Assembly (NCBI GenBank): GCA_039802865.1
Contig: JBDRXL010000001.1
Location: 1,723-65,722, forward strand
DNA length: 64,000 nt
Direction of reading: 5' to 3'
Source of the DNA: a candidate division WOR-3 bacterium
GTDB lineage: Bacteria > Hydrothermota > Hydrothermia > LBFQ01 > DSFT01
Position numbers and translations under genes: made by a program. Shown piece by piece: positions 9,325 to 44,404 of this stretch (positions are counted from its first letter, which is position 1; each line of letters starts with the position of its first letter). Below the pieces are notes generated by a model. That model saw nothing but the letters and a program-made list of their open reading frames with translations. It was not told the DNA's origin and did not search any database.

Positions 9325-10141
9325 TTTTACTATTTAATATCAAAAATAAATTTTCACTTTCAAAATGTAAAATTCTTGAAATATAACCATCTAAAATTTT
9401 ATGAAATTCACCATCTTTATATTCAAATAATCCATTTGAAGTTCCTATAAATAGCTTATCACTTGAATAAATATCAGTTATATAATCTTCTGAAAATTCA
9501 AATACTTTTATTATTCTATCTTGATAAAAAAATCCAACTTTACTTTTTGAAAATGGCTCTGAAAAGCCAATGATTATTGTATCCTTATAAATTGAAATGG
9601 ATTTTATAAAATTAGAAGGTAATTTTCCAAGTATAAAGTGTTTAACTTTTGAATTTTCAATAATATACAATCCATAGCCATTTGTCCCAATAATAAGCTT
9701 GTTTTTATAAAATTTATAAGTTTCTATTTCTGAAATTTTAATAGTATCATTATTTCTAAAAATTCCATTTTTAAACAAATAAAAACCATTTACATAACCT
9801 ATTATTCCATCCTTTTCTTTAAATTGAATAAAACTTTTTCCATCATAAAAATAAATTTTGCTTTTTGAAATTAAAAATAAACTATCATTGCTTATTGAAA
9901 ATTTTCCATAAAAATTATAACTATTTATCTTTCTTAAATTTTTATCATATTCAAATATCCCACAACTTAATGTTAAAATAATGAATTTTTCTTTATAATA
10001 AATCCCATCTACAAAAGAGCTATCACAAGATGAAAATGATGTTAATTTTTTATTTGCAATTTCTTTGGATTTCTGACACGATAGAATTTGCAATAGTCCG
10101 AGATAAATTATCAACATAAAGTAAGTCTTCAAGTGTTTCAT
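9302..10141 (-). CDS. Lipoprotein of unknown function
   Basis: Lipobox LLQILSC. Its 5' end overlaps the 3' end of dxr in another frame, so the true start may be the internal Met near 10117. Confidence 0.45.
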   Translation of the reverse strand: MKHLKTYFMLIIYLGLLQILSCQKSKEIANKKLTSFSSCDSSFVDGIYYKEKFIILTLSCGIFEYDKNLRKINSYNFYGKFSISNDSLFLISKSKIYFYDGKSFIQFKEKDGIIGYVNGFYLFKNGIFRNNDTIKISEIETYKFYKNKLIIGTNGYGLYIIENSKVKHFILGKLPSNFIKSISIYKDTIIIGFSEPFSKSKVGFFYQDRIIKVFEFSEDYITDIYSSDKLFIGTSNGLFEYKDGEFHKILDGYISRILHFESENLFLILNSKIKKLKLS

Positions 10142-11192
10142 CTTTTATATCCTCCTTTTGAATTCTATTTAAAGTTTCTTCAACAACTTTAAAAATATCT
10201 CTAAACTTAATTTTCCCTTCTAAAAAACTATAAACTGCAATTTCATTTGAAGCATTCATAATTGTAGGATAATATGATAATTTTTCTAAACAAAAATAAG
10301 CAATTTTTAAAGATGGGAATTTTTCAAAATCTGGTTTTAAAAATGTTAATTTTTCAAAATCATAGGGATGTGTAATAGTTGATGGTTTTTCAAGTCTTTG
10401 AGGATAACTTAAAGCATAAGCAATAGGTATTCTCATATCTGGAAATCCTAAATGTGCCAATAATGAACCATCTTTTAATTGAACAAATGAATGAATTATA
10501 CTTTGGGGATGAATTACAACATCTATGTTTTTAGTATCAAATAAATAATAGGCTTCAATAATTTCAAGAGCTTTATTAAATAAAGTTGCAGAATCAATAG
10601 TAATTTTCTTACCCATTTTCCATGTAGGATGCTTTAAAGCATCTTCAACACTAACATTTTCCATCTCTTCAATTGTTAAGTTCAAAAATGGACCTCCTGA
10701 TGCAGTTAAAATAATTCTTTCAAATTCTTCTTTATATGGATTTATAAGTTGAAAAATAGCAGAATGTTCAGAATCAACAGGTATTATAATAGAATTTGAA
10801 TTTTTTAAATGATTTTTTACTATTTTTCCAAATGAAACAAGAACTTCCTTATTAGCAAGAGCTATATTTATATTATTTTTTATTGCCTTTAAAACAGGAA
10901 ATATAGAAAATGTTCCAGTCGTAGAAACAAATAATAAATCTATATTCTCTATAAGCTCTAAAATTTCATCCTTTCCTTTATAAATTTTAAATTCCTCACT
11001 CTTAATATCTAAATTCTCATTTATAAATCCAACTTTTTTAACATTAAATTCCTTTGCAATTTCAAATAATTTCTCATAATTTGAATAAGAAACCAAAAAT
11101 TCAATTTTATATAAATTTTTAAACTTTCTAATTACTTCAATTGTTTGAATGCCTATTGAACCAGTAGCTCCAATTATACCTATTCTTTTCAT
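10050..11192 (-). CDS. dxr: 1-deoxy-D-xylulose 5-phosphate reductoisomerase
   Basis: N-terminal NADPH-binding fold IGIIGATGSIG and conserved Dxr core. About 380 aa. Confidence 0.85.
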   Translation of the reverse strand: MKRIGIIGATGSIGIQTIEVIRKFKNLYKIEFLVSYSNYEKLFEIAKEFNVKKVGFINENLDIKSEEFKIYKGKDEILELIENIDLLFVSTTGTFSIFPVLKAIKNNINIALANKEVLVSFGKIVKNHLKNSNSIIIPVDSEHSAIFQLINPYKEEFERIILTASGGPFLNLTIEEMENVSVEDALKHPTWKMGKKITIDSATLFNKALEIIEAYYLFDTKNIDVVIHPQSIIHSFVQLKDGSLLAHLGFPDMRIPIAYALSYPQRLEKPSTITHPYDFEKLTFLKPDFEKFPSLKIAYFCLEKLSYYPTIMNASNEIAVYSFLEGKIKFRDIFKVVEETLNRIQKEDIKDETLEDLLYVDNLSRTIANSIVSEIQRNCK

Positions 11193-11194
11193 AT

Positions 11195-11212
11195 TTTAAA
11201 AAATTTTAAAAG
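11195..11212 (-). promoter_or_regulatory. Promoter-like motif TTTTAAAATTTTTTAAAAT directly upstream of the dxr start
   Basis: A variant of the recurrent palindromic motif, located 2 nt before the start codon. Confidence 0.3.
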
Positions 11213-11918
11213 CATAATAAATACCAATTTTAAATTCCTTTTCATTTATTATAAAATCCCCTCTGATATTATTATAAGATACTGAAAATCCATAAATCAT
11301 ATTATAATCCTTTGTTTTTAAGTTTTGCCATACTCCACCCCTTAACATCAAATATTCCCTATATATAAAAAATTCAACATTACTAAATGCATAAAATGTA
11401 GTATCTATATTTGAAATTCCAAATGTTAAAAATCTATAAATTGTTGGTTCATATGAAATAGCTAAAATTCCATTAAATGTATTTCTATACTCTCCATAAA
11501 ATCTAAAACTTGCTTGCTCAAATGAAGCAATTTTAAAAAATCCCCTTATTTCAAAACTATCTTTAATATATCCAACTGAAAGCTTTATTTGATGTTTATC
11601 GAAAATACTAAAATTAGAGCCAACATTAAAATTAATTTTATCTCCAATATAAAATCCATTAAAACCAACATCAATTTTATTAAATTTATAACCCAAACCC
11701 AATCCATATATTGTATCAAAATAAAAACTATAAACAAAGTTTTCTAAAATGGGGAATGTAAAATAGGCTTTTTTATAAGTTATATCAAATTGCAAAGCAT
11801 TATAAAATAATATTTGAGATGCTGGGAAATAGAACCTTTCACTTTCATCAGATATAATTTTATTAAAAAATCCTAAGCCTTCTTGTCTTATAAGAGTTGA
11901 TATTAAAAAGTGTAGCAT
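11196..11918 (-). CDS. Hypothetical protein, possibly an outer-membrane beta-barrel
   Basis: Alternating aromatic/hydrophobic beta-strand pattern and a C-terminal ...YYAFKIF ending in Phe. No clear signal peptide in the annotated N-terminus. Confidence 0.3.
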   Translation of the reverse strand: MLHFLISTLIRQEGLGFFNKIISDESERFYFPASQILFYNALQFDITYKKAYFTFPILENFVYSFYFDTIYGLGLGYKFNKIDVGFNGFYIGDKINFNVGSNFSIFDKHQIKLSVGYIKDSFEIRGFFKIASFEQASFRFYGEYRNTFNGILAISYEPTIYRFLTFGISNIDTTFYAFSNVEFFIYREYLMLRGGVWQNLKTKDYNMIYGFSVSYNNIRGDFIINEKEFKIGIYYAFKIF

Positions 11919-11959
11919 AGTTGAAAGTTTAAAGGAATAACAATTTAACCATTAAACTT

Positions 11960-12955
11960 TTGGCTATGAAAATAAGAGAACTTGAACTTATCAATTTTAA
12001 AAAATTCTCCCACTTAAAAATTCAATTCTCTGAAAATATCAATTTAATTATAGGTAAAAATAGAGCTGGAAAAACTACTATTATTGAAGCAATTAGTTAT
12101 ATTTCTATTCCTCGCTCTTTTAGAAATGTAAAGGATGAATACTTAATTAAGTTTAATGAGAATGGATTTTCAGTAAAAGCAATATTTTCTAACTTAACAG
12201 AACATTATGTTTTAATAACTTATAAGAAAAATGGATTTAAGATAATAACACTTGACAATAAAAGAGTTAAGACATTTTTAAAGCTTTTTGAAAAATTTCC
12301 AGTTTTAACATTCCATTCAAATAATTACAATATAATAGAACAATCCCCAGAAATAAGAAGAAAATTTTTTGATTGGTTCTTTTCTATATTGGATTATGAA
12401 TATTTTGTAAGTCTTTATAAATATAAGAAAATTTTAGAACAAAAAAATAAAGCCTTAAAACTAAAAAGTGATGTTTTAATATGGAATAGACAATTAAAAG
12501 AAGTTTCAAATTACATAATCAAAAAAAGGGAAGAATACATTGAAAAATTAAATTCTATTATAAAAGAACAAGACCAAAATATAAAAATTGAATATGTAAA
12601 TTCTTTAAAAGATAAAACATTTGAAAGTGTTTTAGAATTTGAGATAAAAAGAGGATTTAGTATAATAGGACCTCACAGAGATGATTATAAGTTTTATTAT
12701 AAAAACTATGATTCAAAGTTTTTTTCATCAGAGGGTGAAAAAAGGAAAATTTTCTTAGAGCTTTCGCTTGCTATGATAAAATTAAGTAAAATTATTAAAA
12801 ATGAAGAACCTATTATAATGTTTGATGACCCATTTAGTGTTTTAGATGAAAATGAACTAATTGATTTATTAAATAAAATTGAAAAATTAAACTTACAAGT
12901 AATAATAACCTCTATAAGACCAATTAAAATTAATGCCCATATTATTAACCTTTAA
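11960..12955 (+). CDS. RecF-family ATPase, copy 1
   Basis: Walker A GKNRAGKTTIIEAISY near the N-terminus, signature-like SEGEKRKIF, and Walker B/D-loop IIMFDDPFSVLDE near the C-terminus. Confidence 0.65.
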   Translation: MAMKIRELELINFKKFSHLKIQFSENINLIIGKNRAGKTTIIEAISYISIPRSFRNVKDEYLIKFNENGFSVKAIFSNLTEHYVLITYKKNGFKIITLDNKRVKTFLKLFEKFPVLTFHSNNYNIIEQSPEIRRKFFDWFFSILDYEYFVSLYKYKKILEQKNKALKLKSDVLIWNRQLKEVSNYIIKKREEYIEKLNSIIKEQDQNIKIEYVNSLKDKTFESVLEFEIKRGFSIIGPHRDDYKFYYKNYDSKFFSSEGEKRKIFLELSLAMIKLSKIIKNEEPIIMFDDPFSVLDENELIDLLNKIEKLNLQVIITSIRPIKINAHIINL

Positions 12956-37740: not shown

Positions 37741-38649
37741 ATGATTGAAATTGAAAAAATAGAAAATTTTATATCTATGACAAAAGTTGATTATAATAAC
37801 TATAAAGAATTTTTAAAAAATCGCAATTATGTTATAGTTGAAAATGTGAAATTGGAAATTGGGAGAAATTGGAAAATAAAAGAATTCGAACCAAAACATT
37901 TTGAATTAGAAACTACCAATGTCTGGTCCTTTCCCAATAGAGGTAAATGGGCAACGCATTATCTCAACTCAAAATATAGAGGTAATTGGGCACCTCAGGT
38001 TGTTAGAAATCTACTTATAAGATACACTAAGGAGGGGGATTGGGTTTTAGATCCTTTCGTTGGTTCGGGCACAACTTTAATAGAAGCAAAACTCCTCAGA
38101 AGAAATGCTATTGGTATAGATATTAATTATGAAGCGGTAATACTTACCTTGGATAGATTAAATTTTGATATGCCTCCTAACTTATTAGAAAATGATAAAA
38201 AACCAATAATAGAAGTTTATGTTGGCGATGCACGAAATTTAGATAAGATAGAGAATGAATCTATTGACTTTATTGCTGCCCATCCTCCATATGTGGATAT
38301 AATAGGTTATAGTAAAAATTCAAATTCCAAAATAGATGGAGATTTATCAAAAATACATTCTGTAGAAGATTTTTGCATAGAAATGAAAAAAGTTGCTAAG
38401 GAAATGTATAGAGTTCTGAAACCACATAAATTTTGTGCTATTTTGATAGGTGATACAAGAAGGAAAAAATATCATATTCCGATATCTTTCAAGGTTTTAA
38501 ATGTTTTTCTTGAAGTAGGATTTAAATTAAAGGAGGATATAATAAAAATTCAGCATAGAATGAAAACAACACCTTTATGGGTAAAGAGAAGTAAAGAGCT
38601 TAATTTCCTTCTTCTTCAATACGAACACTTATTTGTATTTGAAAAATGA
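37741..38649 (+). CDS. SAM-dependent DNA methyltransferase (N6-adenine or N4-cytosine), motif I before motif IV
   Basis: AdoMet-binding VLDPFVGSGTT...IGIDIN..A, then catalytic AAHPPY about 80 aa downstream. Confidence 0.6.
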   Translation: MIEIEKIENFISMTKVDYNNYKEFLKNRNYVIVENVKLEIGRNWKIKEFEPKHFELETTNVWSFPNRGKWATHYLNSKYRGNWAPQVVRNLLIRYTKEGDWVLDPFVGSGTTLIEAKLLRRNAIGIDINYEAVILTLDRLNFDMPPNLLENDKKPIIEVYVGDARNLDKIENESIDFIAAHPPYVDIIGYSKNSNSKIDGDLSKIHSVEDFCIEMKKVAKEMYRVLKPHKFCAILIGDTRRKKYHIPISFKVLNVFLEVGFKLKEDIIKIQHRMKTTPLWVKRSKELNFLLLQYEHLFVFEK

Positions 38650-39206
38650 GGCAAGTTGACTTGGAAAAGTTTATGTCTTTTAAAAGAGGAAATTCATTAG
38701 AAAAACCTTTAAGTGTTGTGAAAATTAATGATAATTATATTTTAGCGATATATAAGGGTAAAAAGAGTAAAGCTGACATTTTAATTCGTTATAGGCAAAA
38801 ACTAAAAAATAACAAGTGGAGCAATATAAGAACACCGAAACATATTCACTGGATTGTTGATATTTTAATGAAATTAAGCAGGGAACCAGAACTTACCAAA
38901 AAGTTTTTAGATACATTAATGAATATCTGGGATACTCTTAAACCCTTAAATGAAAAAACAAGGGATAAATTGAAATTAGAAGACTTATTTAAATATGATA
39001 ATAAAATTTTAAATGAATTTCGGGAACTAAGTAAATATGGGGAGTATAATATTAAATTCTTAATACTTCTAGCTAAACTTTTAATGATTCAAGAAAAAAC
39101 TAATTATCCCAAAGGAAAAATTTTTCAAAAGCTAATTGAAAAGCTAAAAGAAGGAGAAGATTTATTTAGTATATTGCAAATAGCAACTTTAAGGAAGATG
39201 AGTTAA
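38646..39206 (+). CDS. Hypothetical 186-aa protein translationally coupled to the methyltransferase; candidate restriction or control partner, unverified
   Basis: ATGA overlap with the MTase stop. No recognisable nuclease motif. Confidence 0.3.
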   Translation: MRQVDLEKFMSFKRGNSLEKPLSVVKINDNYILAIYKGKKSKADILIRYRQKLKNNKWSNIRTPKHIHWIVDILMKLSREPELTKKFLDTLMNIWDTLKPLNEKTRDKLKLEDLFKYDNKILNEFRELSKYGEYNIKFLILLAKLLMIQEKTNYPKGKIFQKLIEKLKEGEDLFSILQIATLRKMS

Positions 39207-39238: not shown

Positions 39239-39832
39239 ATGACTGTTCAAGTGCCTGAAATTAAATTGAATGAAAATGTTAAATTAAATAGTAAAGAAAC
39301 CGCTTTAATAATAGTGGATATGCAAAATGATTTTTGTGATGAGAAAGGAAGTTTATTTGTTCCAGAAAGTAGAAAAACAATAGAACCCATTCAAAAACTA
39401 ATAGAAAAAGCAAGAGAAAAGAATGTGAAAATTTTTTATACTCAAGACACTCACAAAAAAGATGATAAAGAATTTGAAATATGGCCTGTTCATGTAGTAG
39501 AAGGAACATGGGGTTGGGAAATTATACCCGAACTTAAACCTACTGAAAATGATATTATTATAAGGAAATTAAGATATGATGGATTTTATGGAACAAGCCT
39601 AGATCATTATTTAAAAATCTACAATATAAGGAACTTGGTAATAGTTGGAACAGTTGCTAATATATGTGTTCTCCATACTGCTGGAAGTGCTGCTTTAAGA
39701 TGGTATAATATAATTGTTCCTATTGATGGGATTTCTGCTTTAAATGAATTTGATTATTATATTGCTTTAAGGCAAATAGACTTTTTATATAAAGGTATTT
39801 TAACGAAAGTTGAATTTATAGAATTTGTATGA
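39239..39832 (+). CDS. Isochorismatase-family cysteine hydrolase (nicotinamidase-like)
   Basis: N-terminal [12 protein letters not shown], catalytic Cys context GTVANICV and a conserved Lys. Confidence 0.65.
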
Positions 39833-41688
39833 TAAAAGAATATTTTGATGTAATTGTAATAGGTGGAGGACATGCAGGTATTGAAGCAAGTTTAGCAAGT
39901 GCAAGAATGGGTTTGAAAACTCTTCTATTAACACTTGATATTGATAAAATTGGTCAGATGTCTTGTAATCCAGCTATGGGGGGAATTGCAAAAGCACATT
40001 TAATTAAAGAAATTGATGCACTTGGTGGAGAGATAGCAGTGGCAACAGATGAATGCGCAATATCTACAAAAATGCTAAATGTGAGAAAAGGTCCAGCAGT
40101 ATGGTCTTTAAGAGCACAAGTTGATAGAAAAGCTTATAGAGAAAGGATGAAAAGAGTTGTAATGAATACAAAGAATTTAAGTGTATTTCAAGAGGAAGTT
40201 GTAAAATTAATAATTGATGGATATAAGGCAAAAGGTGTAATTACATCACTTGGATATGAATTTTATGCAAAAGCAATTGTTCTAACAACTGGGACATTTC
40301 TTGGAGGGAAAATTTATATAGGATATAATACTAAAATGGCTGGAAGGCTTGGAGAATCCCCATCTATTGAACTATCTAAGCAATTAAGAGAAATTTTTAA
40401 TATATCAAGATTAAAAACAGGAACATCTCCAAGAATAGATGGGAGAACTATTGATTTTTCAAAATTAAAAATTGATGAACCTGATAATCCACCAAGAGGT
40501 TTTTCATTTAGAAATCCTTACTTAAACATAGAACAATTACCTTGCTATGTAACTTATTCAAATGAAAGAACACATGAAATAGTTATGAAAAATTTACATT
40601 TAGCTCCTATGTATAATGGATTAATAAAAAGTAAAGGTCCAAGATATTGTCCAAGTTTTGAAACAAAAGTTGTAGAATTCTTTAAAGAAGTCAAAAGTCA
40701 TAGAATTGTATTAGAACCAGATGGAAGAGACACAAATGAGTGGTATTTAAATGGCTTTTCAACATCATTACCATTAGAAGTTCAATATGAAATGTTAAGA
40801 ACACTTCCTGGACTTGAAAATGCAGTAATATTAAGACCAGGATATGCAGTAGAATATGATTATGTAGATCCAAGAGAATTATATCCTTGGCTTGAAACAA
40901 AGAAAATAGAAAATCTATTTTTAGCTGGACAAATAAATGGAACAACGGGTTATGAAGAAGCAGCAGCACAAGGTATAATAGCGGGTATTAATGCAGGATT
41001 AAGGGCTATGAATAAAGAACCATTTTTCCTTACAAGACAAGATGGTTATATTGGAGTCTTAATTGATGATTTAATTACAAAAGGAGCAGATGAGCCATAT
41101 AGAATGCTAACCGCAAGAAATGAATATAGATTAATTCATAGAATGGATAATGCTTATGATAGACTTTCAGAATATGGATATAAACTTGGACTTTTAAAAT
41201 ATGAAGATTATAAAATTATAAAAGAAAAAATTGATATTGTGAGAGAGGAAATTGAAAGATTAAAAAATACAAGAATTAAAGCAAGTGAAATAAATCCAAA
41301 ACTTAAAGAGTTAAATAGCTCAGAAGTTAAAGAAAGCATTACCTTAGCAGATCTTTTAAAAAGAGTTGAAATTAAATATGAGCACTTATTAAAGTGGGGA
41401 TATGGTAAAATTGAAGATAAATTATTGATTGAAAAAATTGAAATTGAAATTAAATATGAAGGATATATTAAAAATCTCTTACAAGAAGCAGAAAAATTGA
41501 GGAGAATAGAAAAAGTAATAATTCCAGATGAAATAGATTATTATGCAATAGTTAATGTATCAAACGAAGGAAAAGATAAACTTAACAAATATAAACCAAA
41601 AACAATTGGGCAAGCACTAAGAATTCCAGGCATAAAACCTACGGATGTTATAAATCTTTATTACTATTTACAAAGGAGTAAAAATTGA
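39829..41688 (+). CDS. mnmG: tRNA uridine 5-carboxymethylaminomethyl modification enzyme MnmG (GidA)
   Basis: FAD-binding motif [14 protein letters not shown] and the full-length conserved core. About 619 aa. Confidence 0.9.
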
Positions 41689-41769
41689 TGGATGTAATTT
41701 ATTTTTCAATTTTGTTATTTATAGCACTTTACTGGGTTTTAAAGCCTATTGTTAAAAGCGCTAAGTGAA

Positions 41770-42202
41770 ATGGATTATACTGTTTCTGAAGTATTTAAGG
41801 AAGTGTTTGAGGCCTTATATGGCAACAAACTCGGTAATCTATATAGTAATGCACGAAATGATATTACTACTATATTTGGGGCTCACAGAACAAAGAATAA
41901 AACAGAAAGTTACTATTGACAAAGAAATTATTTATAAAAGAATAAGTGGTCAAGAGATAGTTTCTTATGGAGTATTTGTTGTTGATAATGAAAAAAGGGG
42001 ATCGAACTTCTTTCTTTTAGAAGAAATTGATGAAGATTTTTATGTAAATCCAAGAAACACAATGTTCCAGGTAAAATATAATCCTTTCCTTCGAAAACCC
42101 ATTGACTACTATTCATTCATAATGAACTTAACCAATTCGGTTATCAAGTCCCTTACAAAGAGTTTAAATACAACTAAAACCGAAATTGCTTATCTAACAT
42201 GA
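41770..42202 (+). pseudogene. Disrupted gene remnant upstream of the second DNA MTase. Its N-terminal part (41770-41919, MDYTVSEVFKEVFEALYGNKLGNLYSNARND...) and C-terminal part (about 41920-42202) lie in different frames.
   Basis: The globular-looking N-terminal segment ends at a stop and the rest continues in the +1 frame. The frame switch falls near an A-rich run around 41900-41925. The ORF-track 145-aa GTG-start ORF has a junk-like hydrophobic N-terminus. Confidence 0.3.
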
Positions 42203-43551
42203 GAAAGAATAACATTTTAAATGAAAAAATTGGCTTTGTTCAAACCCCATCAGAAATAGCTAAGTTAATGATTATGTTATCAACAGTTGATAAAAATTCT
42301 AATATATTAGATACGGGTTGTGGAGAAGGTATTTTTTTGCAAGAGCTTGAAAAAGAAGGATATATAAATTGCTATGGTATAGAAATAAATAAAGAGCTTT
42401 ATGAATTATGCAAAAAGAAATTCAAAGATAAATATAAGATAATTTTGGGAGATTTCTTAACTTATAGTTTTAATGAGAAATTTGATTTAATTATAGGAAA
42501 TCCGCCATACATTCATTTTAATCAAATACCTACACAAATTCGAAACAATGTAAGAAAAATTATCAAAACAAGCGAAGGAGATATTTATTATGCTTTTATT
42601 ATAAGGTCAATACAACTTTTAAAAAATGGTGGGGAACTTATATACATTGTCCCCTACTCCTTTTTTTATAACACTTATGCAAAAATAGTAAGGGAATTTA
42701 TACTTAATTATGGAAAAATAGAGATAATTATTGATTTAGATGAAGCAAGAATTTTTAATAATGAAAATCCAGAAACAATTATATTTAAATTTAAAAAGGG
42801 AAAATTCAACTTAAATCAAGAGAAAATAATCCTTTTAAGAATAAAGAGGAAAAATTCAAAACCTTATGAAATATACATAAAAGCAAAAAATTCATTAGAA
42901 ACAAAAAATTCAAACGATTTATTTGAATATAACATAATCCCCCATTATACAAATACAAATCAATGGTCTTCACTATTTTTTTATATTCCTAATTTCAAAT
43001 ATATTCTATTAAAAGAAATTGCAAAAGTTGGTGTAGGAATGGTATCAGGATTTGATAAAGCATTTATAATACAAGATGATAGTAAATTTACTTTTGAAGA
43101 AGGAAAACTTATAAAAAAGTTTGTGAAAGCAAAACATTGTAAGAGATATGTTGTAGATGGATATACAAAATATATTCTTATTGATGATAGCATTAAAAGT
43201 GAAGAATATTTAAAAGAAAATTATCCAAACATTTATTTAAAACTTGAAGTTTATAAGGAAGAAATGAAAAATAGATATTTGGTAAATAAGATGTGGTTTA
43301 ATTGGCAAGCTTTAAGAAACTATGAATTTTTATTAAAAAATTATAATAAAAAACGCATTTATGTGCCCACCTTAGATAGACATAATTATAATAGATTTAG
43401 CTTAGGAGAAGAAGGATTATTACCAGCAGGTGATGTGCTATTTATACAACCATTTGATGAAGAAAATTTATATTTTTTACTTGGTTATCTTAATAGCTCT
43501 TTTTTAGAAAATACTATCTTGAAAATGGAGGAAGAAGAGGAGGACGCATAG
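42199..43551 (+). CDS. Gamma-class (TaqI/Eco57I-like) N6-adenine DNA methyltransferase. Its C-terminus is truncated by a frameshift at a T6 tract (43500-43505); the lost C-terminal ~60 aa continues in the +1 frame to 43733.
   Basis: Motifs FVQTPSEIAKLM, LDTGCGEGIF and IIGNPPYI. In the +1 frame, YLENGGRRGGRIVFTQKFLENAKIPIFENKL... matches the conserved C-terminal end of this MTase family. Confidence 0.6.
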   Translation: MRKNNILNEKIGFVQTPSEIAKLMIMLSTVDKNSNILDTGCGEGIFLQELEKEGYINCYGIEINKELYELCKKKFKDKYKIILGDFLTYSFNEKFDLIIGNPPYIHFNQIPTQIRNNVRKIIKTSEGDIYYAFIIRSIQLLKNGGELIYIVPYSFFYNTYAKIVREFILNYGKIEIIIDLDEARIFNNENPETIIFKFKKGKFNLNQEKIILLRIKRKNSKPYEIYIKAKNSLETKNSNDLFEYNIIPHYTNTNQWSSLFFYIPNFKYILLKEIAKVGVGMVSGFDKAFIIQDDSKFTFEEGKLIKKFVKAKHCKRYVVDGYTKYILIDDSIKSEEYLKENYPNIYLKLEVYKEEMKNRYLVNKMWFNWQALRNYEFLLKNYNKKRIYVPTLDRHNYNRFSLGEEGLLPAGDVLFIQPFDEENLYFLLGYLNSSFLENTILKMEEEEEDA

Positions 43552-43723
43552 TATTTACACAAAAATTTCTTGAAAATGCAAAAATTCCGATATTTGAAAA
43601 TAAATTAAAAGATGAAATAATAAAAATTACTTTGGAAATTTTAGATAAGAAAAATAAGAATGATATAAGTAATTTAGAAAATGAAATGGATAACATAATA
43701 AATAAATTTATAACTTTAAAATT

Positions 43724-44404
43724 TTGGTCTTGAAAGTTCTTGAAGTAAAAAATTTGAGTGTTTATATAGATGGTAAAGAGATTTTAAAAGATATTAATTT
43801 TTCGCTAAATGAATCAGAGTTATTAATTGTAATTGGTCCAAATGGTGGTGGAAAAACAACCCTTCTTAAAGCAATTTTAAAAATTATACCTTATAAAGGA
43901 GAAGTTTATATTAAAGAAAATTATAAAATTGGTTATTTACCACAAAACATAGAGAATATATCAAATATCCCAATCACCATTTATGAAATTTTAAAATTCT
44001 TTACAAATGTAAAAAAATCAAAAATTGAGGAAATTATGGAAATTTTTGAATTAAAAAATTATAAAAATGAGTTATTTAAAAATGTATCTGGGGGGTTAAA
44101 ACAAAGAACGTTAATTGCACTCAGTATATTAACAGGAAGTAATATCCTATTATTAGATGAGCCTACGAATAATCTTGATTTAAATGCACAGCGTGAATTT
44201 TATGAATTAATTAAAAAATTAAAAAAAGATTTTAAAATATCTACAATTATGGTAAGTCACGATATAGGGATTGTAAGTGCTATTGCTGATAATGTCCTAT
44301 GTTTAAATAAAGTTATGTATTATCATGGAGAACCAAGTTTAAATGAAAAATTGCTTTGTGAATTATATGGAAATGAAATAAAAATTATATTCCATGCTCA
44401 TTAG
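43724..44404 (+). CDS. Metal (Zn/Mn-type) ABC transporter ATP-binding protein
   Basis: Walker A GPNGGGKTT, signature VSGGLKQR and Walker B LLLDEPTNNLD. ZnuC-like size. TTG or GTG start region. Confidence 0.7.
   Translation: MVLKVLEVKNLSVYIDGKEILKDINFSLNESELLIVIGPNGGGKTTLLKAILKIIPYKGEVYIKENYKIGYLPQNIENISNIPITIYEILKFFTNVKKSKIEEIMEIFELKNYKNELFKNVSGGLKQRTLIALSILTGSNILLLDEPTNNLDLNAQREFYELIKKLKKDFKISTIMVSHDIGIVSAIADNVLCLNKVMYYHGEPSLNEKLLCELYGNEIKIIFHAH

What the first reader, a model, noticed from the sequence alone, without database searches (positions are those of the whole stretch)
43491..43733. TaqI/Eco57I-like N6-adenine MTase truncated by a -1 frameshift in a T6 homopolymer; the conserved C-terminal tail is intact in the +1 frame
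At 43500-43505 (tctTTTTTTag) the reading frame yields ...LNSSFLENTILKMEEEEEDA-stop. With one more T it would read ...LNSSFFRKYYLENGGRRGGRIVFTQKFLENAKIPIFENKLKDEIIKITLEILDK..., which is the typical C-terminal end of gamma-class MTases (the GG...LPIP... motif), and would terminate at 43733. Possible explanations are a homopolymer sequencing error, slipped-strand phase variation of the MTase, or early pseudogenisation.
Basis: seen in the sequence. Interest (0 to 1): 0.55.

Follow-up and report, generated by a model that had tools for sequence, protein, structure and literature searches.

The report
Frameshifted methylase in decaying restriction system
A DNA methylase gene in an uncultured hot-spring bacterium has really lost one T from a run of seven and so lacks its last 76 residues; the restriction enzyme gene next to it was already wrecked, so this is an ordinary defence system decaying into pseudogenes.

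Summary
The 450-aa ORF at 42199-43551 is a gamma-class (Eco57I/TaqI/CamA-like) N6-adenine DNA methyltransferase. It leaves its frame in the T6 run at 43500-43505. One extra T gives a 511-aa protein ending at 43733.

An intact ortholog of exactly this length and tail (P0123, 99% identical, same neighbours) exists in two other metagenomes and carries T7. T6 is found in the window and in 12 other assemblies. It is the only 1-bp indel against 37 SNPs over 13.3 kb, and it co-segregates with the SNPs private to the T7 lineage. It is therefore a real, inherited deletion, not a sequencing error. There is no sign of rapid on/off switching.

The best reading is stepwise decay of a Type II restriction-modification system: endonuclease first, orphaned methylase second. 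A basal -1 ribosomal slip on T_TTT_TTA would restore the exact wild-type protein, but nothing suggests it is programmed. Interest is low.

The parts
41749..42202 (+). Remnant (pseudogene) of the cognate Type II restriction endonuclease. Frame A (41749-41919) keeps only scraps of the N-terminal part, up to ...NKLGNLYSNARNDITT. Frame B (about 41825-42202) keeps residues ~100-224 of the ~240-aa enzyme. The block FSEPxDxIY...GRTPYDxLCxGK is missing, there is a frame switch near 41871, and 44 bp of the 3' end are deleted relative to L013/L014.
   Evidence: tblastn of the intact partners from L015 and L018 gives 56-60% identity over 114-125 aa, E 1e-43 to 8e-45, plus a 22-aa piece in another frame. 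Alignment A2 is and the three-frame translation. The intact family has a SwaI/HincII/EcoRV-like fold and matches PADLOC REase_II at 9.6e-102.
42199..43551 (+). Truncated gamma-class N6-adenine DNA methyltransferase ORF of 450 aa: 435 native residues plus 15 out-of-frame residues (LENTILKMEEEEEDA). The catalytic domain, with motif I DTGCGEG and motif IV GNPPY, and most of the target-recognition domain are intact.
   Evidence: The model of the repaired protein (pLDDT 88) matches CamA and M.BseCI at TM 0.77-0.80.
43500..43505 (+). T6 run, the site of the 1-bp deletion. The ancestral state is T7, encoding TCT TTT TTT = Ser-Phe-Phe. Together with base 43506 it forms the heptamer T_TTT_TTA in the X_XXY_YYZ register.
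   Evidence: T7 in L001 and L002 (L002 = L021); T6 in the window and L003-L014.
43506..43733 (+). Stranded 3' end of the methylase gene: codons 437-511 plus the stop TGA at 43731-43733, now out of frame. It encodes the last part of the target-recognition domain.
   Evidence: 100% identity to P0123 residues 435-511. Near-invariant residues are listed. Predicted elements are helices 434-442 and 451-459, strand 462-464, and helices 468-483 and 491-510. The stretch aligns to the C-terminal part of the CamA TRD.
43724..44404 (+). ABC-transporter ATPase gene. Its TTG start codons (43724 or 43730) overlap the ancestral methylase stop. In the T6 allele the upstream ORF ends about 180 nt earlier.
   Evidence: In L001 the gene calls are MTase 10001-11536 and ABC 11533-12207.

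Best explanation
This is a genuine, vertically inherited 1-bp deletion (T7 to T6) in the two Phe codons 435-436 of an orphaned Type II N6-adenine DNA methyltransferase gene. The gene once formed a two-gene restriction-modification system with a SwaI/HincII/EcoRV-fold endonuclease encoded immediately upstream and overlapping it.

In this WOR-3 lineage the endonuclease gene was destroyed first, by internal deletions that removed the conserved FSEPxD...GRTPYD block and by a frame switch. That removed the need for protective methylation. In one sublineage the methylase then lost its last 76 residues through the frameshift. Those residues form the closing helices and strand of the target-recognition domain and include 12 near-invariant positions.

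The truncated product is most likely inactive or unstable, so the locus is a young pseudogene pair.

Shown here: the frameshift, its inheritance, the intact T7 ortholog, the endonuclease remnant and its fold family.

Inferred: loss of methylase activity, relaxed selection as the cause, and any effect on the downstream ABC gene, whose start used to overlap the methylase stop.
For: (1) Intact ortholog P0123 is 511 aa and 99% identical, with the same neighbours (isochorismatase, mnmG, remnant, MTase, ABC). It carries T7 in two independent records, JGI 3300038392 and GCA_006214125.1.

(2) T6 is present in the window and in 12 other loci: six NCBI MAGs in two accession series (JBDRX*, JAUQPS) and six Logan assemblies (SRR27730012/27/29/45/46 and SRR21619488).

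(3) Window versus L001 over 13.3 kb shows 37 SNPs and a single 1-bp indel, which is this one. This rules out general homopolymer noise.

(4) The T state has the same distribution as the L001/L002-private SNPs that flank it (42532, 42542, 42546, 43102, 44462).

(5) The 90%-identity cluster in a collection of 15 billion proteins holds only three 450-aa variants and one 511-aa form.

(6) The upstream ORF is the C-terminal half of a ~240-aa partner. This partner sits directly upstream of the methylase, overlapping its start by 8 nt in L015 and L018, in about 20 related loci. The remnant is the same in the T7 loci, because no other indels occur there.

(8) Comparable decay is seen elsewhere: a frameshifted endonuclease in L016/L017 and L022; methylase variant P0125 frameshifted; both genes broken in L069; a shredded methylase in L081.

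(9) Methylase substitutions between lineages are 3 nonsynonymous to 1 synonymous, against 8:23 in the flanking genes (Fisher p = 0.08). This is suggestive of relaxed constraint only.
Against: The stranded tail carries no substitution or stop in any of the 15 sequences. However, overall diversity is only about 0.1-0.3%, so this says nothing either way.

Loss of activity in the truncated enzyme is inferred from conservation and structure, not measured.

If the inferred ancestor (T7, 44 bp present) is added, the three haplotype groups need either one crossover between 42198 and 43500 or a second change in the T tract. Recombination is directly visible nearby, because SNPs 41337, 41881 and 42467 are mutually incompatible. 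Branch lengths also place the T7 lineage as outgroup. Even so, a recurrent or reverted 1-bp change is not formally excluded.

The heptamer T_TTT_TTA could allow a trace of full-length protein.
Confidence: 0.8

Rival explanations
1. Homopolymer sequencing or assembly error: the organism really has T7 and an intact 511-aa methylase.
For: The difference is a single base in a homopolymer, in a metagenome-assembled genome. An intact T7 version exists at 99% identity.
Against: T6 recurs in 12 further assemblies made by different pipelines from at least six sequencing runs and two MAG accession series. It is the only 1-bp indel in 13.3 kb that contains many runs of the same length. It co-segregates perfectly with the lineage-defining SNPs.
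Confidence: 0.03
2. Slipped-strand phase variation: the T tract is a contingency locus that switches an orphan methylase (a phasevarion-like regulator) on and off.
For: Both T6 (off) and T7 (on) alleles exist among 99.8%-identical genomes, and the tail is still intact. Once the ancestor is included, the haplotype pattern needs either recombination or a second tract change.
Against: The tract is only 6-7 nt, which is ordinary in a 26% GC genome (78 T6 and 26 T7 runs per 64 kb). It is simply two invariant Phe codons. The equivalent tract is T6 in 22, T7 in 3 and T8 in 3 other loci from other species or MAGs, and is in frame in all of them. The tract state is uniform within each SNP-defined clade, 13 of 13 and 2 of 2. 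No 511-aa variant on the T6 background exists in the protein collection. The frameshift lies at the 3' end. The partner endonuclease remnant points to decay rather than regulation.
Confidence: 0.07
3. Recoding: the T6 allele is still expressed as full-length enzyme, through -1 ribosomal frameshifting on T_TTT_TTA (43500-43506) or through transcriptional slippage. This would give a mixture of 450-aa and 511-aa products.
For: The heptamer is in the X_XXY_YYZ register. A -1 slip gives ...SSFFRKYY..., which is identical to the wild-type protein (worked out from the sequence). U_UUU_UUA is the HIV-1 slippery sequence (PMC4373837).
Against: There is no stimulatory element. The 122 nt starting at the tract fold more weakly than shuffles (z = +1.42). 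No Shine-Dalgarno-like element is visible upstream of the tract in the sequence. There is no Rfam hit. In E. coli, heptamers without a stimulator reach only 2-10 times a background of about 0.05% (PMC4066793), which is under 1%. The register is an automatic by-product of deleting one T from TCT TTT TTT A. No ortholog uses a frameshift at this site. A run of six is short for RNA polymerase slippage (general knowledge).
Confidence: 0.07

Closest known systems
CamA of Clostridioides difficile (PDB 7lni and related), M.BseCI (7qw5-8) and M.TaqI (2adm, 1g38): monomeric gamma-class N6-adenine DNA methyltransferases
   Same: The motif order is the same: motif I, then motif IV (NPPY), then a C-terminal target-recognition domain. 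phmmer E-values are 2e-19 (CamA), 4e-18 (TaqI) and 1.6e-15 (BseCI). Foldseek TM is 0.77-0.80 to CamA and BseCI over the whole length, including the tail. In CamA the TRD is residues 320-577, a beta-cluster flanked by helices (PMC8187626).
   Different: Identity is only 17-24%, and the recognition sequence here is unknown. CamA is a conserved orphan regulator, whereas this family is normally paired with an endonuclease. The window copy lacks the last 76 residues.
R.SwaI (5tgq), HincII (3ebc) and EcoRV (1eo3): the blunt-cutting PD-(D/E)XK Type IIP endonuclease branch
   Different: Identity is 8-15%, there is no Pfam or NCBIfam model, and the third motif position is Asn rather than Asp/Glu. Cleavage and specificity are untested. 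In the window only a broken C-terminal half remains.
MjaIV system of Methanocaldococcus jannaschii (GTNNAC, m6A; R gene MJ1327)
   Same: It is a Type II system from the same kind of organism as the closest archaeal homologs. It has an m6A methylase and a recognition site related to that of HincII (PMC2615612, PMC11033074).
   Different: This is a lead from the literature only. No sequence comparison with MjaIV could be made with these tools, so membership is untested.
Phase-variable DNA methyltransferases (phasevarions, such as mod genes with simple-sequence repeats)
   Same: In both, a repeat-length change in the coding sequence switches a methylase open reading frame off.
   Different: Here the tract is short, common by chance, conserved as two Phe codons, stable within clades, and sits near the 3' end.
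Decay of restriction-modification systems into orphan methylases and pseudogenes (general pattern)
   Same: The endonuclease is lost before the methylase, and the methylase is then frameshifted. Parallel cases occur in sister loci.
   Different: Nothing is different in kind. This is one more example, in an uncultured thermophilic phylum.

Membership tests
Gamma-class N6-adenine DNA methyltransferase (Pfam Eco57I PF07669 / N6_Mtase PF02384; TaqI/CamA type) | AdoMet-binding motif I and catalytic motif IV (NPPY), in that order | tested here: met
   LDTGCGEG at residues 37-44 and GNPPY at 100-104, which are invariant in alignment A1. Pfam Eco57I 1.4e-24 and N6_Mtase 1.1e-16.
Gamma-class N6-adenine DNA methyltransferase (Pfam Eco57I PF07669 / N6_Mtase PF02384; TaqI/CamA type) | Two-domain fold with a C-terminal target-recognition domain | tested here: met
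Gamma-class N6-adenine DNA methyltransferase (Pfam Eco57I PF07669 / N6_Mtase PF02384; TaqI/CamA type) | Complete open reading frame through the target-recognition domain | tested here: not met
   The window ORF ends at residue 435 plus 15 foreign residues, so residues 436-511 are out of frame.
Gamma-class N6-adenine DNA methyltransferase (Pfam Eco57I PF07669 / N6_Mtase PF02384; TaqI/CamA type) | Sequence-specific m6A methylation activity | not testable with these tools
   This needs a methylome or an enzyme assay.
Type II restriction-modification system | Adjacent endonuclease and methylase genes | tested here: met
   The pair is conserved, with the endonuclease directly upstream of the methylase (8-nt overlap in L015 and L018) in about 20 related loci. 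PADLOC REase_II 9.6e-102 and MTase_II 3.9e-146.
Type II restriction-modification system | Endonuclease with a nuclease fold | tested here: met
Type II restriction-modification system | Both genes intact in this window | tested here: not met
   The endonuclease is reduced to a two-frame remnant that lacks the FSEPxD...GRTPYD block. The methylase is frameshifted.
Phase-variable methyltransferase (contingency locus) | Hypermutable repeat tract longer or more frequent than chance | tested here: not met
   T6/T7 is ordinary here: 78 T6 and 26 T7 runs in 64 kb. The tract is two conserved Phe codons, and it is T6-T8 and in frame in 28 other loci.
Phase-variable methyltransferase (contingency locus) | Tract length varies among closely related genomes independently of the genetic background | tested here: not met
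   13 of 13 are T6 in one SNP-defined clade and 2 of 2 are T7 in the other. Only consensus sequences could be tested; read-level heterogeneity is not testable here.
Programmed -1 ribosomal frameshift site | Slippery heptamer X_XXY_YYZ in the zero-frame register | tested here: met
   T_TTT_TTA at 43500-43506, with zero-frame codons TCT TTT TTA.
Programmed -1 ribosomal frameshift site | Stimulatory element: a downstream structure or an upstream Shine-Dalgarno-like sequence | tested here: not met
   The downstream 122 nt fold more weakly than shuffles (z +1.42). No SD-like element is seen upstream. There is no Rfam match.
Programmed -1 ribosomal frameshift site | The frameshift arrangement is conserved among orthologs | tested here: not met
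   All other loci read through this site in a single frame, and the nearest ortholog has T7.

The most novel reading that the evidence does not exclude
The T6/T7 tract may be more than a dead-end mutation. Either it is a slow, reversible switch, with the T7 lineage being a revertant as the 44-bp-deletion and 42467 characters would allow. Or the T6 allele still makes a trickle of exact wild-type enzyme through -1 slippage on T_TTT_TTA. In either case an orphaned methylase in an uncultured thermophile would be kept at tunable low dosage rather than lost.
Probability: 0.07. Interest if true: 0.5.

Novelty: new member of a known kind. Interest (0 to 1): 0.15.

Why it matters
The finding matters only modestly, in three ways.

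1. It gives a clean, population-resolved example of the usual order of restriction-modification decay: nuclease first, methylase second. The example comes from candidate phylum WOR-3, with both the before (T7) and after (T6) alleles preserved in public metagenomes.

2. It shows that a ~240-aa protein family labelled 'hypothetical', with no Pfam or NCBIfam model, is a SwaI/HincII-fold Type II endonuclease. The family is spread across thermophilic bacteria and archaea.

3. It flags an annotation problem. The truncated 450-aa product is deposited under ordinary protein accessions as an intact 'class I SAM-dependent methyltransferase', and the endonuclease remnant is called as a gene.

None of this opens a new question.

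Tried and rejected
- **Exact-pattern scans for other tract lengths.** I searched GGTTATCTTAATAGCTC-N5-9-AGAAAATACTA. Metagenome contigs returned only the already known VAPR01004252, and genome contigs returned nothing. No further haplotypes were gained.
- **Sequencing platform of the JBDRX* MAGs.** I tried to find it through the WOR-3 paper PMC12542636. That paper's genomes are a different deposit (CNP0007392/PRJEB93962), so the platform stays unknown.
- **Family and structure searches on the endonuclease partner and on the 186-aa ORF 38646-39206.** Pfam and NCBIfam (both proteins) and a PDB sequence search (partner only) found nothing. Only PADLOC and the fold comparison identified the partner.
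- **Stimulatory RNA for frameshifting.** None was found.
- **Terminator between the premature stop and the ABC gene.** None was found.
- **Second copy of the methylase or the partner in the window.** There is none.
- **Link to MjaIV (GTNNAC).** This is a literature lead only and could not be tested by sequence.
- **Selection on the stranded tail.** This could not be tested, because no substitutions occur there.
- **'T7 is a reversion'.** I considered this because of the 44-bp and 42467 characters. I rejected it as the main reading because the T7 lineage has by far the longest branch and recombination is directly visible in 41337-42467.
Full report
**Observation**

The window is 26% GC. At 43500-43505 there is a run of exactly six T. 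The ORF 42199-43551 (450 aa) reads ...LGYLNSSF and then fifteen unrelated residues (LENTILKMEEEEEDA) before a stop. Adding one T gives a 511-aa protein that ends ...ITLKFWS with a stop at 43731-43733.

The protein is a gamma-class N6-adenine DNA methyltransferase. It matches Pfam Eco57I at 1.4e-24 and N6_Mtase at 1.1e-16. It has the motifs DTGCGEG and GNPPY and matches PADLOC MTase_II at 3.9e-146.

**Is the tail real coding sequence?**

Yes. Full-length homologs of 500-540 aa at 51-68% identity cover 96-98% of the repaired protein. They come from WOR-3, Aquificota, Thermotogota, Methanocaldococcus, Thermococcus and Asgard archaea. In the alignment the stretch just after the frameshift is among the best conserved parts of the protein. 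F435, F436, R437, Y439, Y440, L441, G444, R447, G448, R450, Q455 and P464 are each at least 90% conserved.

The 90%-identity cluster of the window protein holds three 450-aa variants and one 511-aa member, P0123. The C-terminus of P0123 is letter for letter the repaired tail.

**Error, switch or mutation?**

*The two alleles.* P0123 is encoded in two records, JGI 3300038392 and GCA_006214125.1. The gene order is the same as in the window: isochorismatase, mnmG, small ORF, methylase, ABC ATPase, ABC-3 permease. Both records carry T7.

The 450-aa forms are encoded on 20 contigs that were read. Twelve of these were fetched as loci: six NCBI MAGs in two accession series and six Logan assemblies of separate sequencing runs. 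All twelve carry T6.

*Against a sequencing error.* Across 13.3 kb, the window and L001 differ by 37 substitutions and by one single-base indel, which is this one. The region contains many runs of equal length, so the indel is not homopolymer noise.

*Against rapid switching.* The T state has the same distribution as the substitutions private to L001/L002 on both sides of it (42532, 42542, 42546, 43102, 44462). The tract itself is just TCT TTT TTT, that is Ser-Phe-Phe with both Phe invariant. At the same site the tract is T6 in 22, T7 in 3 and T8 in 3 other loci, always in frame. No other relative changes frame there. Runs of six or seven T are commonplace in this genome.

I conclude that this is a single inherited deletion. 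Neither an artefact nor a contingency locus fits the data.

*One caveat.* L013/L014 (T6) retain 44 bp at the junction with the upstream ORF, and all other loci lack them, including the T7 loci. With the obvious ancestor (T7, 44 bp present), this needs either one crossover between 42198 and 43500 or a second change in the tract.

Two things favour the crossover. SNPs 41337, 41881 and 42467 are mutually incompatible, so recombination or mosaic consensus is visible in exactly that interval. The T7 lineage also has about 18 private substitutions in 5.6 kb, against about 5 for L013/L014, which places the root on the T7 branch. A reverted or recurrent tract change therefore remains possible but is the less economical reading.

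**Surroundings**

The small ORF upstream (41765-42202 as listed; similarity starts at about 41749) has no Pfam or NCBIfam hit. In another WOR-3 species (L015) and in Methanocaldococcus sp. 10A (L018), a 238-240-aa gene sits in the same position and overlaps the methylase start by 8 nt.

The window ORF is 56-60% identical to residues ~100-224 of that protein. A 22-residue piece (NKLGNLYSNARNDITT...) lies in a second frame. The conserved N-terminal block FSEPxDxIY...GRTPYDxLCxGK is missing.

The wreck is the same in the T7 loci, because no other indels occur there. The nuclease was therefore lost before the methylase frameshift.

Among 69 related loci from species-representative genomes, the partner is intact upstream of the methylase in about a dozen. 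It is broken in L016/L017, L022, L030 and L035. Both genes are broken in L069. The methylase is shredded in L081. The partner is absent in the more distant Asgard, Marinitoga and Ignavibacteria copies. A sister WOR-3 methylase also has a frameshifted variant, P0125. Decay of this system is recurrent.

**What the truncation removes**

The model of the repaired protein (pLDDT 88.1) superposes on CamA and M.BseCI at TM 0.77-0.80, and on M.TaqI. phmmer aligns residues 79-502 to CamA residues 143-572. In CamA, residues 320-577 form the target-recognition domain, a beta-cluster flanked by helices (PMC8187626).

The lost residues 436-511 are predicted as helices 434-442 and 451-459, strand 462-464, and helices 468-483 and 491-510. 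A few natural homologs lack the very last helix (for example P0070, 486 aa). Among the complete homologs aligned, none stops before the GGRRGGR...IP block; the shorter hits look like partial or N-terminally truncated sequences.

Loss of specific DNA binding, or misfolding, is therefore the likely outcome. This is an inference.

Substitutions between the T7 and T6 lineages are 3 nonsynonymous to 1 synonymous in the methylase, against 8:23 in the flanking genes (p = 0.08). This is compatible with relaxed constraint once the nuclease was gone, but it is not significant.

**Recoding**

Deleting one T from TCT TTT TTT A necessarily leaves T_TTT_TTA (43500-43506) in the X_XXY_YYZ register. A -1 slip there would yield ...SSFFRKYY..., the exact wild-type protein. 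U_UUU_UUA is the HIV-1 slippery sequence (PMC4373837).

There is, however, no downstream structure (z = +1.42), no upstream Shine-Dalgarno-like element and no Rfam match. In E. coli, heptamers without stimulators give only 2-10 times a ~0.05% background (PMC4066793). At most a trace of full-length enzyme is expected, as an incidental leak.

**A side effect**

The ancestral stop (43731-43733) overlaps the TTG start of the ABC ATPase gene (43724 or 43730). In the T6 allele translation ends about 180 nt earlier. No terminator-like site lies between the two. Any effect on the transporter is speculative.

**Comparison and verdict**

The locus is a degenerate member of a known kind: a Type II system with a gamma-class m6A methylase and a SwaI/HincII/EcoRV-branch endonuclease. 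Its specificity is unknown. MjaIV (GTNNAC; PMC2615612, PMC11033074) is an untested lead.

The frameshift is real, young and inherited. The best explanation is pseudogenisation following loss of the nuclease (confidence 0.8). The rivals are phase variation (0.07), meaningful recoding (0.07) and sequencing error (0.03).

Interest is low (0.15). The useful by-products are the identification of an unannotated endonuclease family and an annotation correction.

Noticed in passing
window 37741-39206: A beta-class N6_N4 DNA methyltransferase (37741-38649; PADLOC MTase_II PDLC03376 at 3.5e-80) overlaps by 4 nt a 186-aa ORF (38646-39206). That ORF has no Pfam, NCBIfam or PADLOC match. This may be a second Type II system with an unclassified endonuclease. 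Both genes show zero substitutions against L001.
   Followed up: partly
window about 42194-42198; L013 about 2360-2405; L014: There is a 44-bp indel at the junction of the endonuclease remnant and the methylase start. L013/L014 keep 44 bp that encode the ancestral endonuclease C-terminus (...LLQIQKEIVEIKKYT). The window and all other loci, including the T7 loci, lack them.
   Followed up: yes
window 41337, 41881, 42467: Three SNPs among the 15 near-identical sequences are mutually incompatible (four gametes). This indicates recombination between co-existing strains, or mosaic consensus sequences in the MAGs.
   Followed up: partly
L016/L017 5348-6002; protein P0125; L022; L030; L035; L069; L081: The same restriction-modification pair has decayed in parallel in other lineages. 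The endonuclease is frameshifted in a sister WOR-3 species. That species' methylase has a frameshifted 449-aa variant. Both genes are broken in a Calescibacterium MAG. The methylase is shredded into three frames in 'Bacterium HR19'.
   Followed up: partly
window 43724-43733: The ancestral methylase stop codon (TGA, 43731-43733) overlaps the TTG start codons of the downstream ABC-transporter ATPase gene. The frameshift moves the upstream stop about 180 nt away, so any translational coupling is lost.
   Followed up: no
window 39239-39832: The isochorismatase-family gene carries 7 of the 37 substitutions between the window and L001 within 594 bp, including two adjacent ones in a single codon. This is a local hotspot compared with its neighbours.
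   Followed up: no
window 42199-43551 and 41765-42202 (public annotation): The truncated 450-aa product is deposited under normal protein accessions as 'class I SAM-dependent methyltransferase' (for example MEO0217094.1). The endonuclease remnant is called as a gene of 114-158 aa, with different starts in different assemblies. Neither is flagged as a pseudogene.
   Followed up: partly
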